Part shown: positions 651 through 49,027 of the stretch, piece after piece | Position numbering within the stretch: position 1 is the stretch's first letter | Layout of the letters: every line of letters starts with the position of its first letter | DNA from: a phage | NCBI GenBank assembly: GCA_025830695.1 | Contig: GCA_025830695.1_4111.1 | Length of the DNA stretch: 64,000 nt | Reading direction: 5' to 3' (one strand) | Position numbers and translations under genes: made by a program | Notes under the pieces: generated by a model | The model's input: the letters and a program-made list of their open reading frames with translations, nothing else | Told to the model about the DNA's origin: nothing | Databases searched by the model: none

Positions 651-3565
<2,915 letters not shown>

Positions 3566-3650: not shown

Positions 3651-4953
<1,303 letters not shown>

Positions 4954-43806: not shown

Positions 43807-44025
43807 ATGAAATTTATTGATTTTGATATTTCTAAGGCCAAAGAATTATTTGTAAGAAATGAAGTTTATGATATCATGTTACATAACGGCACTGTACAAG
43901 AAGATGTTGTGTTGTTTTCGTTTGATGGTGAAAATCTCGAAACTATATATAAATTCAGCAACTTAGATGGTGACTTTTGGGAAACCAGTGCTGTTAAAAT
44001 GTATAGAATTAAAAAGGAGCATTAA
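43807..44025 (+). CDS. hypothetical protein
   Basis: internal ATG of track ORF 43789..44025 with AGGAGG RBS. Confidence 0.45.
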   Translation: MKFIDFDISKAKELFVRNEVYDIMLHNGTVQEDVVLFSFDGENLETIYKFSNLDGDFWETSAVKMYRIKKEH

Positions 44026-44026
44026 C

Positions 44027-44515
44027 ATGCCAATTCGTGGTGTACCAGAACCATTAATGGAAGTTATTAAGCATGTTCGCATTGGAGATCGAGAAGTTAA
44101 TCTTCGCCGTAATAACATTTATTACTTTAAAACTTCAGAAATGAGTTCTGTACAGATTGTCATTGGTACATCTATTAAGATTACTCGTGTACTTGATGGT
44201 AGTACTGACTTCGTTGAATATAATGTACTTACTAATAAAGTAACGCATATATATAAATGGAGTGGGTATAAAACTATTAAGTATGAATTTGACTTAGCTA
44301 GAACTGAAGAAGAACGATTTATGCTGAGTACTATCAATCCAGCAAACTATCCCGATCTTGATGCATTTTTGCTAATTTTAAAATTGTATAATGAAGCAAA
44401 TCAGAAAGCTAAAGAGTATGATAGAATCATGTATGAACGCCGAAAAGAACGTGCACAAAAAAGTTATGATCTGTATGATAGCCCATACGTGAAATATAGT
44501 AAGGGGTCGAAATGA
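44027..44515 (+). CDS. EE-FFQ-S family small protein (paralogue 12, divergent)
   Basis: TEEERFMLSTINP; internal ATG of track ORF 43967..44515 with AGGAG RBS. Confidence 0.45.
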   Translation: MPIRGVPEPLMEVIKHVRIGDREVNLRRNNIYYFKTSEMSSVQIVIGTSIKITRVLDGSTDFVEYNVLTNKVTHIYKWSGYKTIKYEFDLARTEEERFMLSTINPANYPDLDAFLLILKLYNEANQKAKEYDRIMYERRKERAQKSYDLYDSPYVKYSKGSK

Positions 44516-44916
44516 ATAAAGAAGTTCAAATTATCATAACTCCACCTATACAAAGTCTGGATGTATCCATTAGTGATTTTTTGGAAAAATACTATGAATG
44601 GTTTAATGAAGATTCAGTAATTTATAACCATTCATTACCAGATGGTTTCGTGGAGCTTATCGAATTAAATTCAAAATCACTATACTTCTGTGTTGAATAC
44701 AATGATTATATGACAGATGAAGCTTATCGCTTTCGTTGTACATTGTATCCGAATTATTTTTCAATAGGTTATAAAGATTACCAGTACTGTACCACTAACT
44801 ATAGTGTTGAGGAAGAATTTCAGTACAATTTACTTTATCCTGATTTAGATTATACGATTGCAGTACTGTTGACTAAAATCATGGATTTTTATAAAGATAA
44901 ATATAATGCAGCCTAA
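44512..44916 (+). CDS. EE-FFQ-S family small protein (paralogue 13, divergent)
   Basis: VEEEFQYNLLYPDLD. Confidence 0.4.
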   Translation: MNKEVQIIITPPIQSLDVSISDFLEKYYEWFNEDSVIYNHSLPDGFVELIELNSKSLYFCVEYNDYMTDEAYRFRCTLYPNYFSIGYKDYQYCTTNYSVEEEFQYNLLYPDLDYTIAVLLTKIMDFYKDKYNAA

Positions 44917-45091
44917 GACATTTGATGAGTGGTTTAATCTACACTATAATATAAATGCAGCAGATATATACTATTTTAAGCTTGAATTGTATATATCATT
45001 GCGTAACCCAATTGAGTACTATAACAACATTATCAATTGTGATGATTTTGGTACATATTTTAGTATAGCCGTTATGGATATTAAGAGATGA
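44906..45091 (+). CDS. hypothetical protein Confidence 0.4.
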   Translation: MQPKTFDEWFNLHYNINAADIYYFKLELYISLRNPIEYYNNIINCDDFGTYFSIAVMDIKR

Positions 45092-45267
45092 CACATGAAG
45101 AATGGATGGCAATGATGAAAAAACGTTATGACCAGTTTGGAAATGGATTTATTGATGGTCATTTCGATATTTTACGAGACAAATATAAGTTCGAATCATA
45201 TGTACTAGATGAGAATGGAAATCGTTGGTTCATCTATGAGCTTGCGGTTAGAGACAAAAAAATATAA
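45088..45267 (+). CDS. MTHEEW-family small protein (copy A)
   Basis: not in track; MTHEEWMAMMKKRYDQFGNG...; ATGA overlap with upstream stop. Confidence 0.45.
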   Translation: MTHEEWMAMMKKRYDQFGNGFIDGHFDILRDKYKFESYVLDENGNRWFIYELAVRDKKI

Positions 45268-45279
45268 TAACCTTTTCCA

Positions 45280-45345
45280 TTGTCCATTGCAATGCTTTCT
45301 TTACAGAAGAATAAATGAAACACTTAATTGAACTGGATACATAAA
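45280..45345 (+). pseudogene. decayed 3' remnant of a 45648..45863-like gene
   Basis: about 60 nt closely similar to the 3' end of ORF 45648..45863, with an in-frame stop. Confidence 0.45.
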
Positions 45346-45522
45346 ATGACACATGAAGAATGGATAGAGTCACTAAAATATAAACATGATCATTTTGGAT
45401 TTGGTATACGCCAAGGCCATTATGATGTTTTGAACGATAAAAAAACGTTCGAATCATTGGTTTTGGACGAAGATTCCAACCACTGGTTCATCTACGAGCT
45501 TGCTATTAGAGATAAAAAATAG
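45346..45522 (+). CDS. MTHEEW-family small protein (copy B)
   Basis: internal ATG of track ORF 45328..45522. Confidence 0.5.
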   Translation: MTHEEWIESLKYKHDHFGFGIRQGHYDVLNDKKTFESLVLDEDSNHWFIYELAIRDKK

Positions 45523-45527
45523 TAAGA

Positions 45528-45863
<336 letters not shown>

Positions 45864-45864
45864 A

Positions 45865-46047
45865 ATGACACACGAAGAATGGATGTCCAAACAGCATAAA
45901 GAACATGACTGCTTTGGGAATGGCATTCGTCAGGTACATTATGATATATTAAGAGATGAAAATCTTTTCAGGTCATATGTTTTGGATACCAGAAAACCCT
46001 GGTTTATATGCGAACTGGCATTTAGAAAGTCAAATAATCAAAACTAA
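45865..46047 (+). CDS. MTHEEW-family small protein (copy C)
   Basis: internal ATG of track ORF 45847..46047. Confidence 0.5.
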   Translation: MTHEEWMSKQHKEHDCFGNGIRQVHYDILRDENLFRSYVLDTRKPWFICELAFRKSNNQN

Positions 46048-46063
46048 ACAAGGAATACAAAAA

Positions 46064-46282
46064 ATGGAAACAACTTTATTTGAAGTTATTCAATCATTAA
46101 AACCTGAAGATGAGGTTCAAGTACTACTACATGGTTATCGTGTAAAAGGTACTGTGGTTTTAGTCAATGATACAACATTGGTTATTACAGAAACAAACCC
46201 ATATGATAGTAATCAACTTGCCAATATCCATATCGATATCACTGGAATTATTGGTGTCGGTGTATCTAAAACACTTGCATAA
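46064..46282 (+). CDS. hypothetical protein
   Basis: internal ATG of track ORF 45956..46282 with AAGGAAT RBS. Confidence 0.45.
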   Translation: METTLFEVIQSLKPEDEVQVLLHGYRVKGTVVLVNDTTLVITETNPYDSNQLANIHIDITGIIGVGVSKTLA

Positions 46283-46335
46283 ATCATTAATTCATTATAT
46301 AATGATTATCACTGGTTCTAGATGAGGATAATATT

Positions 46336-46608
46336 ATGCATTTTGAAAAATTCAACGTAAATCGTAACACACGCATTGAAGTTCTTTATGAAACTCAAGA
46401 CACCATTAGTATTCGTACAAGTAGTGGGGATGTATATCATGACTGTACGATTGGCTGGGAACAGGGAAGGACGCGTAGTGCAGTATTTGATAATTATCGC
46501 TTTTATCAAGGAGACACTACGATTTGGCCTGAATACGTAGAAGATATTGCGTTTGAAGATGAACATAAAGATGAATTTATCAAATTTAATCCTCAAACTG
46601 AATCATAA
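46336..46608 (+). CDS. hypothetical protein Confidence 0.45.
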   Translation: MHFEKFNVNRNTRIEVLYETQDTISIRTSSGDVYHDCTIGWEQGRTRSAVFDNYRFYQGDTTIWPEYVEDIAFEDEHKDEFIKFNPQTES

Positions 46609-46612
46609 ATAA

Positions 46613-46742
<130 letters not shown>

Positions 46743-46745
46743 AAT

Positions 46746-46846
<101 letters not shown>

Positions 46847-46848
46847 CA

Positions 46849-47009
<161 letters not shown>

Positions 47010-47013
<4 letters not shown>

Positions 47014-47170
47014 CACATGAAGAATGGATGAATGACATTAATTTTAGATATTCGGGTATCGGTAAATGGCTAAAGTATCATTGGGAATTCATTTCAGAGC
47101 CACATCTGTATGATAAACTTATCAACGATCCAGCATATGAAATGTACTTAATTGAACTACTGGTACGATT

Positions 47171-47174
<4 letters not shown>
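47010..47174 (+). CDS. MTHEEW-family small protein (copy E)
   Basis: near-identical to copy D over the first third; ATGA-coupled. Confidence 0.45.
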
Positions 47175-47336
<162 letters not shown>

Positions 47337-47344
47337 AAAAAAAG

Positions 47345-47758
<414 letters not shown>

Positions 47759-47815
47759 CTAAATAATTCAGTACTGAGGATATTAATATGTTTAAAGATG
47801 AACGTCCAGATTTGT

Positions 47816-47853
<38 letters not shown>

Positions 47854-47857
47854 GAAT

Positions 47858-48201
47858 TCCACAATCAGACGTATATGGTGTAAGTTACGTCGATGCAATC
47901 CAGAACAAGATCTCTGGTACTCTAGGAAGTGGTGAATGTTAACCTAGACGGGTTTGATAATTGGACGATAGGCAATTATTACTTGACTAGCAGGTTTAAA
48001 CTAGAGGTGACTATCCTTCACCAAACTGGAAAACCGGATGGACTTTTATTTAAAAGGGTAAGGCGTGGAAATATGTTTACAGAAGTTGCTTTTAGTAGCC
48101 TGTACGCCCCACGTCAAGGTAGCCGAAAGGCAAGTTAAGACGGGTGGTTATAAAGCTGAATTAACAGCGGCGTTTAAAAGCGTCACCATCCATTTTTTTT
48201 T
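47858..48201 (+). ncRNA. candidate structured non-coding RNA
   Basis: ORF-poor, GC-richer stretch between a promoter and a hairpin + T-run; long-range complementarity (GGTGAA...TTCACC), GAAA tetraloop CCGAAAGG. Confidence 0.35.

Positions 48202-48217: not shown

Positions 48218-49027
<810 letters not shown>

What the first reader, a model, noticed from the sequence alone, without database searches (positions are those of the whole stretch)
45280..45345. Deletion scar: decayed 3' remnant of a neighbouring gene
About 60 nt upstream of MTHEEW copy B closely match the 3' end of ORF 45648..45863 including its last codons (...LIELDT-stop versus ...LIVLDT-stop) but with an in-frame stop and no upstream coding sequence. 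The repeat unit was therefore originally gene X plus MTHEEW, and one copy of gene X has been deleted, which shows ongoing duplication and decay at this locus.
Basis: seen in the sequence. Interest (0 to 1): 0.45.

Follow-up and report, generated by a model that had tools for sequence, protein, structure and literature searches.

The report
Truncated gene remnant in phage tRNA island
A 75-base dead fragment of a small phage gene of unknown function sits in front of a neighbouring gene in a PBECO4-like jumbo coliphage; it is a real but ordinary recombination and deletion scar in a region that is constantly reshuffled.

Summary
Window 45270-45344 matches the last 24 codons plus stop of ORF X (45789-45863) at 61 of 75 bases, ungapped and in frame. 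The next best match anywhere in the window is 40 of 75. The match runs on into the first 20 bases of the following MTHEEW gene, giving a 91-nt direct repeat at 87% identity. The fragment has an in-frame TAA (45312-45314) and begins 2 nt after the stop of MTHEEW copy A, so it is a pseudogene fragment.

The window is an Asteriusvirus (PBECO4-like jumbo phage). The same scar, 98.5-100% identical, is present in about 20 PBECO4-like genomes. It is absent from 121Q, UE-S1, A4, Turkey3, WPEC5 and ph0011. In Turkey3, WPEC5 and ph0011 an A-type MTHEEW gene is followed directly by a full-length X homologue, so deletion within an A-X module is the best reading.

The scar is old and fixed, not a recent event. 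It is 19% diverged from the resident X and keeps ancestral codons. No genome carries two complete X copies. A and B belong to different old paralogue groups.

The wider locus evolves by recombination within the conserved ends of MTHEEW genes. The finding is ordinary and of low interest.

The parts
45270..45344 (+). dX: 5'-truncated pseudogene remnant of an X-family gene (phrog_25670), corresponding to codons 48-71 plus the stop
   Evidence: 61/75 ungapped identity to 45789-45863 in the same frame. tblastn E=1e-5. 91-nt repeat D3 at 87%.
45312..45314 (+). In-frame TAA replacing a GAG (Glu) codon that is the same in the window, 121Q, UE-S1 and A4 X genes (GAA, also Glu, in the more distant homologues)
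   Evidence: two substitutions, both derived on the dX branch.
45315..45344 (+). Residual 9-codon mini-ORF (MKHLIELDT) starting at the conserved Met62 of X and stopping 1 nt before the ATG of copy B. It reproduces the X-stop/M-start geometry TAAAATG.
   Evidence: Read directly. Any role in translational coupling is inference only.
45346..45365 (+). 5' end of MTHEEW copy B (ATGACACATGAAGAATGGAT), included in the repeat with the X-C junction
45088..45267 (+). MTHEEW copy A (A-type, phrog_10970). Its stop codon lies 2 nt before the remnant, marking the left deletion or recombination junction at about 45266-45270.
45346..45522 (+). MTHEEW copy B (B-type). In outgroup phages this type directly follows g3.
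45550..45622 (+). tRNA-Gly(UCC), part of the resident B-tRNA-X-C module
45648..45863 (+). Intact gene X (71 aa, phrog_25670, unknown function). Its last 75 nt (45789-45863) are the counterpart of the remnant.
45865..46047 (+). MTHEEW copy C (C-type), joined to X by TAA-A-ATG

Best explanation
**What it is.** Window 45270-45344 is a non-functional 3' fragment (last 24 codons) of a second X-family gene.

**How it most likely arose (inferred).**
- Two cassettes were brought side by side: [A-type MTHEEW + X] and [B-type MTHEEW + tRNA-Gly + X + C-type MTHEEW].
- The joining was by homologous recombination within the conserved ends of the paralogous MTHEEW genes. These ends are the 5' ATGACACAYGAAGAATGG and the 3' TGGTTCATCTAYGAGCTTGC.
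- The X next to copy A then lost its start and first ~47 codons. This was a deletion of roughly 150 nt, if the ancestral A-to-X spacing was like that in Turkey3. Its left end lies at or within the last codons of A.
- The order of events could also be reversed, with X truncated first and an intact X cassette re-acquired later.
- The last 75 nt survived because they abut, and probably supply, the translation start region of copy B.
- The fragment has since decayed (stop codon, radical replacements). It was fixed in the ancestor of the PBECO4-like phages.

**Shown versus inferred.** Homology, truncation, the stop codon, the distribution among genomes and recombination at MTHEEW genes elsewhere in the locus are shown. 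The former existence of a complete X at this position and the order of events are inferred.
For: **Homology and truncation.**
- 61/75 identity in frame, against a chance maximum of 40/75.
- A 91-nt repeat at 87% identity.
- The remnant starts 2 nt after the stop of A, and there is no ORF in its frame.

**Decay.**
- With A4 and UE-S1 as outgroups, 10 changes fall on the dX branch and 4 on the X branch. Eight of the 10 are non-synonymous and include Glu-to-stop.
- The changes hit residues (G, D, S, E, V) that are the same in the window, 121Q, UE-S1 and A4 X proteins.

**Module evidence.** In Turkey3, WPEC5 and ph0011 an A-type MTHEEW gene (75-78% aa identity to A) is followed after 10 nt by a full-length X homologue.

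**Lineage.**
- dX shares 5 derived bases with the resident X against both outgroups, so it belongs to the same X sub-lineage.
- It lacks the 3 changes common to the PBECO4 and 121Q alleles, so it split off earlier.

**Recombination at MTHEEW genes elsewhere in the locus.**
- 121Q and the window are 99% identical over 45476-45947 (5 mismatches), inside 75-85% identical flanks. The boundaries lie inside B and C.
- fEgEco12 and BF17 carry a B-type/A-type hybrid MTHEEW gene that has lost orf168.
- 121Q has a foreign insert bounded by a duplicated g3-3'-end/MTHEEW-5' junction.
- The D/E/F array varies between 2 and 3 copies.
- Metagenome contig L017 has A-dX joined directly to C, with the crossover inside the 22-nt identical stretch ACTGGATACATAAAATGACACA.

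**Distribution.** The scar is 98.5-100% identical in about 20 PBECO4-like genomes and absent from other Asteriusvirus lineages.
Against: - No genome with a complete X between A and B was found, so the complete ancestor is hypothetical.
- The full-length X that follows A-type genes in Turkey3-type phages is a divergent allele. It matches the remnant at only 39/69, so it is not the direct ancestor.
- The branch-length excess on dX is not statistically significant with so few sites (10 vs 4, binomial p=0.18).
- The exact breakpoints cannot be fixed. Only a 4-nt ATAA microhomology is visible.
Confidence: 0.7

Rival explanations
1. Partial copy, never a complete gene. Only the tail of X plus the MTHEEW 5' end (~95 nt) was copied in front of B. 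This could have happened by an illegitimate or short-patch gene-conversion event from an X-MTHEEW junction, or the left crossover of the joining event fell inside X. In either case no second complete X ever sat next to A.
For: - No genome has two complete X copies.
- Identity is higher near the junction (23/25 in the last 25 nt, 38/50 further upstream), as expected for a conversion tract anchored on the MTHEEW 5' motif.
- 121Q shows a similar short remnant of the g3 3' end in front of B.
Against: - A-type MTHEEW followed directly by a complete X homologue is a conserved module in three other phages.
- The remnant carries ancestral states absent from the resident X, so it is not a recent conversion from it.
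- The left end coincides with the end of A to within 2 nt. This fits a deletion inside an A-X module.
Confidence: 0.2
2. Exapted element. The remnant is retained because it functions as the leader of copy B. It would supply the weak GGA ribosome-binding context and a 9-codon mini-ORF (45315-45344). The stop of that mini-ORF lies 1 nt before the B start codon, which would allow termination-reinitiation coupling, as X may do for C. This is compatible with either origin above.
For: - The junction geometry TAAAATG is identical for X-C and for mini-ORF-B.
- Other MTHEEW genes overlap the upstream stop codon as ATGA: g3-A, D-E and E-F.
- The last 25 nt are the best conserved part of the remnant.
Against: - There is no convincing Shine-Dalgarno sequence before the mini-ORF ATG.
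- All genomes carrying the remnant are 97-98% identical overall, so conservation says nothing about function.
- No promoter-like or terminator-like site above the shuffle expectation was found in the region.
- B-type genes in outgroups work with a different upstream gene, g3.
Confidence: 0.1
3. Chance similarity, or merely the shared untranslated leader of MTHEEW genes.
For: None beyond the AT-rich composition of the region.
Against: - The match is more than 10 sd above the window-wide distribution.
- It extends 75 nt into X coding sequence in frame.
- It is absent upstream of copies A, D, E and F.
Confidence: 0.01

Closest known systems
Gene remnants (truncated pseudogenes) left by deletion in the non-essential, hyperplastic regions of large lytic phages
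   Same: Homology to an intact neighbouring gene, loss of start and 5' part, a disabling stop, relaxed constraint, and no annotation as a CDS in any of the related genomes inspected.
   Different: Nothing essential. The one particular point is that the remnant is kept exactly up to the start codon of the next gene.
PeSL-mediated modular shuffling in T4-type phages (Arbiol et al. 2010, PMC2839356; Comeau et al. 2014, PMC4122927)
   Same: Small non-essential ORFs, here together with tRNA genes, are inserted, deleted and swapped between close relatives by recombination between short repeated sequences that flank cassettes.
   Different: Here the repeated joints are the conserved 5' and 3' ends of a paralogous protein-coding family (phrog_10970), not promoter plus stem-loop cassettes. 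No promoter-like or terminator-like site above chance lies at this junction. A separate promoter-like repeat family does occur nearby but is not at the scar.
Unequal crossing-over in tandem paralogue arrays
   Same: Direct repeats, hybrid genes (fEgEco12/BF17), copy-number variation (D/E/F), and a candidate deletion product between the two X-tail/MTHEEW-start repeats (L017).
   Different: The A-dX and B-tRNA-X units are not recent tandem duplicates of each other. A and B are old, distinct paralogues.

Membership tests
Pseudogene / gene remnant of X (phrog_25670) | Sequence homology to a functional gene beyond chance | tested here: met
   61/75 identity against a chance maximum of 40/75. tblastn E=1e-5. 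The intact X matches phrog_25670 at 3.6e-47.
Pseudogene / gene remnant of X (phrog_25670) | Truncated relative to all full-length homologues, with no start codon or upstream coding sequence | tested here: met
   Only codons 48-71 are present. Homology ends 2 nt after the stop of A. All other homologues are 68-71 aa.
Pseudogene / gene remnant of X (phrog_25670) | Disabling mutation | tested here: met
   TAA at 45312-45314 replaces a Glu codon that is GAG in the window, 121Q, UE-S1 and A4 X genes.
Pseudogene / gene remnant of X (phrog_25670) | Relaxed constraint on its branch | tested here: inconclusive
   10 changes against 4, with 8 of the 10 non-synonymous at residues that are the same in the four closest X proteins, but p=0.18 on 14 sites.
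Recent in-situ tandem duplication of an [X + MTHEEW] unit | Both units complete in some relative, or the flanking paralogues are each other's closest relatives | tested here: not met
   No record has two full X copies. A, B and C fall into three separate orthologue groups shared with outgroup phages. dX lacks the derived changes of the resident X.
Recent in-situ tandem duplication of an [X + MTHEEW] unit | Direct orientation and an identical junction | tested here: met
   Same strand and the same TAA-A-ATG junction.
PeSL-type regulatory cassette shuffling | Strong sigma70-like promoter plus stem-loop terminator at the recombination joint | tested here: not met
   The promoter/terminator scan of 44800-46400 is at the shuffle expectation and finds nothing at the joint on the + strand.
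PeSL-type regulatory cassette shuffling | Indels and replacements between close relatives bounded by short repeated sequences | tested here: met
   The boundaries lie in the conserved ends of MTHEEW genes.
MTHEEW family = phrog_10970 | Full-length match to the PHROG profile | tested here: met
   A, B, C and D match at 1e-25 to 1e-29 over 1-56/56. There is no Pfam family.

The most novel reading that the evidence does not exclude
The conserved ends of the MTHEEW genes (phrog_10970) may not just be passively recombinogenic paralogues. They may serve as dedicated cassette joints of the Asteriusvirus tRNA island, a protein-coding analogue of T4-type PeSLs that moves tRNA genes and small ORFs between co-infecting phages. 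On this reading the X tail is retained because its 9-codon mini-ORF couples translation into copy B.
Probability: 0.12. Interest if true: 0.4.

Novelty: new member of a known kind. Interest (0 to 1): 0.15.

Why it matters
It matters little on its own. The scar is one small, fixed pseudogene fragment of a gene of unknown function.

Its value is as a marker in three ways:
- It defines the PBECO4-like clade within Asteriusvirus.
- Together with the hybrid genes and the 99% identical patch shared with 121Q, it documents that the tRNA island of these jumbo phages is rebuilt by recombination inside a small paralogous gene family.
- It warns annotators that 45268-45345 is not intergenic 'spacer' of independent origin.

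Tried and rejected
- **Searches for a complete second X.** I looked for a relative with a complete X between A and B. tblastn of X against 50,697 phage records, IMG/VR scans with the A and X proteins and with a DNA pattern, and one metagenome scan found none. IMG/VR contains only 121Q itself.
- **Left unit with its own tRNA-Gly.** I considered that the left unit once carried a tRNA-Gly, because 'ATATAATA' after A resembles the spacer before tRNA-Gly downstream of B. Eight bases in AT-rich DNA is not evidence, and Turkey3-type phages show A directly followed by X, so I dropped the idea.
- **fEgEco12/BF17 arrangement.** I first read it as g3-A-X. tblastn shows that the gene is a B-type/A-type hybrid.
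- **13-nt identity with copy E.** The remnant and the 3' end of copy E share ACTTAATTGAACT. I treated this as chance, because the rest of the remnant aligns only to X.
- **Function of X and MTHEEW.** Pfam gave nothing and PHROGs gave only 'unknown function'.
- **Promoter/terminator scan.** Nothing above the shuffle expectation.
- **Polymorphism among PBECO4-like genomes.** Too sparse to compare rates: 1 variable site in the remnant, against 1 in A, 6 in B and 4 in X.
- **Literature search.** No description of this locus was found.

Full report
**Context.** A 4-kb stretch around the finding is 97-98% identical to PBECO4-like jumbo coliphages (genus Asteriusvirus) and about 90% identical to 121Q. 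The finding lies in the phage's tRNA island, a run of small + strand ORFs and tRNA genes.

The local map in window coordinates is:

| Feature | Coordinates |
|---|---|
| g1 | 43967-44515 |
| g2 | 44512-44916 |
| g3 | 44906-45091 |
| MTHEEW copy A | 45088-45267 |
| Remnant dX | 45270-45344 |
| MTHEEW copy B | 45346-45522 |
| tRNA-Gly(UCC) | 45550-45622 |
| X | 45648-45863 |
| MTHEEW copy C | 45865-46047 |
| g4 | 46064-46282 |
| g5 | 46336-46608 |
| tRNA-Ser | 46652-46741 |
| MTHEEW copies D, E, F | 46849-47335 |
| g6 | 47405-47758 |

The MTHEEW proteins match phrog_10970 and X matches phrog_25670. Both are of unknown function, and neither has a Pfam family.

**Checking the observation.**
- The 75 nt at 45270-45344 align without gaps to the last 75 nt of X (45789-45863) at 61/75 identities in the same frame. 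The translations are TFSIVHCNAFFTEE*MKHLIELDT* and TGSIVHDSAFFTKEEMQHLIVLDT*.
- Over both strands of the window the same query averages 20.7 matches (sd 3.9), and the best unrelated position scores 40.
- The 50 nt furthest from the MTHEEW start still score 38/50, against an unrelated maximum of 31. The identity is therefore not just a shared leader.
- The identity continues through TAA-A-ATG into the first 20 nt of the MTHEEW gene. The repeat finder reports this as a 91-nt direct repeat at 87% identity.
- Homology stops about 2 nt after the stop codon of A. The fragment has an in-frame TAA at 45312-45314 and no start codon.

**It is a decaying pseudogene fragment.**
- I polarised the 14 differences with the X genes of A4 and UE-S1 as outgroups. 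Ten fall on the remnant's branch and four on the resident X branch.
- Of the ten, eight are non-synonymous. They change G, D, S, E (to stop) and V residues that are the same in the window, 121Q, UE-S1 and A4 X proteins.
- The numbers are too small for significance (p=0.18), but the pattern is that of relaxed constraint.
- None of the related genomes inspected annotates a CDS there.

**Distribution.**
- The scar is present, 98.5-100% identical, in about 20 PBECO4-like genomes, including isolates from Bangladesh, South Africa and Malaysia, and in one 179-kb metagenome contig.
- It is absent from 121Q, UE-S1, A4, Turkey3, WPEC5 and ph0011.
- It was therefore fixed in the ancestor of the PBECO4-like clade.
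- No record anywhere has two complete X genes. Every 'second place' is this remnant.

**What the relatives say about origin.** The MTHEEW copies fall into three orthologue groups:
- B-type always follows g3 in the outgroups.
- C-type follows X.
- A-type is followed, after a 10-nt spacer, by a complete X homologue in Turkey3, WPEC5 and ph0011.

Locus arrangements across the genus:

| Phage(s) | Arrangement |
|---|---|
| UE-S1 | g3, B, tRNA-Gly, X, C |
| Turkey3 type (Turkey3, WPEC5, ph0011) | g3, B, orf168, A, X', ... |
| Window | g3, A, dX, B, tRNA-Gly, X, C |

An [A + X] module sitting in front of a [B + tRNA-Gly + X + C] module, with the first X reduced to its tail, is therefore the simplest reading.

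The remnant shares five derived bases with the resident X against both outgroups. It lacks the three changes common to the PBECO4 and 121Q X alleles. It thus belongs to the same X sub-lineage but split off before the present resident allele arose. Together with the old A/B split, this argues against a recent in-situ tandem duplication. It favours two modules joined by recombination, followed or preceded by truncation of one X.

**Recombination at MTHEEW genes is directly visible elsewhere in the locus.**
1. 121Q and the window are 99% identical from 45476 to 45947 (5 mismatches), inside flanks of 75-85% identity. The boundaries lie inside B and inside C. This indicates a recent exchange of the tRNA-Gly-X cassette.
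2. fEgEco12 and BF17 have a hybrid MTHEEW gene, B-type for residues 1-55 with the A-type 3' end. It is fused to X', which equals the Turkey3 arrangement minus orf168.
3. 121Q has a truncated 20-aa MTHEEW ORF and a foreign insert, followed by a second copy of the g3 3' end (aagatggatattaagag) in front of B. This is a second scar of the same kind.
4. The D/E/F array has two or three copies in different relatives.
5. The 2.5-kb metagenome contig L017 has g3-A-dX joined directly to C. B, tRNA-Gly and X are missing, and the switch lies inside the 22-nt identical stretch ACTGGATACATAAAATGACACA. This is either a genuine recombinant between the two 91-nt repeats or an assembly chimera. I cannot tell which.

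**Why the tail survived.** This part is inference. X ends 1 nt before the ATG of C (TAAAATG), and the remnant reproduces this geometry in front of B. The other MTHEEW genes overlap the preceding stop codon as ATGA. A deletion reaching further would have removed B's translation start region. The remnant also leaves a 9-codon mini-ORF (45315-45344) that begins at the conserved Met62 of X. A role in translational coupling is possible but untested, and it has no convincing Shine-Dalgarno sequence. The promoter/terminator scan shows nothing above shuffle expectation.

**Comparison with known systems.** The closest described phenomenon is modular shuffling in the hyperplastic regions of T4-type phages. 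There, short repeated promoter/stem-loop cassettes (PeSLs) bound insertions, deletions and replacements between close relatives (PMC2839356, PMC4122927). The outcome here is the same, but the joints are the conserved ends of a paralogous coding family. The defining promoter-plus-terminator feature is not present at this junction, so the locus is not a PeSL. Otherwise this is a standard gene remnant.

**Verdict.** It is a deletion or recombination scar of an X-family gene. It is an old, fixed one, and it is not evidence for a recent or ongoing duplication of the resident X. The finding is ordinary, with interest 0.15.

Noticed in passing
L017 (OEQM01001048.1) 2090-2260, corresponding to window 45230-45400 and 45865 onward: A metagenome contig has g3-A-dX joined directly to MTHEEW copy C. 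B, tRNA-Gly and X are missing, and the switch lies inside a 22-nt identical stretch. It is either a real deletion between the two 91-nt repeats or an assembly chimera.
   Followed up: partly
window 45476-45947 vs L004 (121Q) about 3060-3530: A patch 99% identical to 121Q (5 mismatches over B 3' end, tRNA-Gly, X and the 5' half of C) sits inside flanks of 75-85% identity. This indicates a recent exchange of the tRNA-Gly-X cassette, with crossovers inside MTHEEW genes.
   Followed up: yes
L004 (121Q) 2566-2930: 121Q has a 20-aa truncated MTHEEW ORF and two small foreign ORFs, followed by a ~17-nt remnant of the g3 3' end directly in front of copy B. This is a second scar of the same type. The remnant matches the PBECO4-type g3 end better than 121Q's own g3 end.
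   Followed up: partly
L021 (fEgEco12) 2066-2236; L022 (BF17) 2089-2259: A hybrid MTHEEW gene, B-type for residues 1-55 with the A-type 3' end, is fused to X'. This equals the Turkey3 arrangement after unequal recombination that removed orf168.
   Followed up: yes
window 46849-47335: Three tandem MTHEEW genes (D, E, F) have overlapping ATGA junctions. Relatives carry two or three copies and apparent hybrids, so copy number varies by unequal crossing-over.
   Followed up: partly
window 46746-46824: A tRNA-like sequence scores 32.6 bits with Rfam (gathering score 29) but is not called by ARAGORN. The identical sequence is annotated as tRNA-Leu(taa) in 121Q, and slurp01 has an unrelated tRNA-Arg(tct) at the same site.
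   Followed up: partly
L007 (Turkey3) 2719-2790; also after the A-type gene in L006 (A4) about 3820-3900: A tRNA-Gly(UCC)-like sequence with an acceptor stem and T arm, but an odd anticodon arm. Neither ARAGORN nor Rfam calls it. It is possibly a decayed tRNA gene.
   Followed up: no
window 46263-46308, 47334-47379, 47743-47788, 47813-47858, 48574-48619: A family of promoter-like repeats (CTTGACTAAATAGTTCAGTACTGATATAAT). Each has TTGACT and TATAAT hexamers and a palindromic spacer, TCAGTACTGA. They lie upstream of small ORFs and tRNA genes. They may be phage early promoters with an operator-like spacer.
   Followed up: no
L003 (slurp01) 2824-2840, corresponding to window 45354-45355: Copy B in slurp01 reads MTHKEW instead of MTHEEW, the state seen in B-type genes of outgroup phages. 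This suggests patchy conversion at the 5' motif.
   Followed up: no
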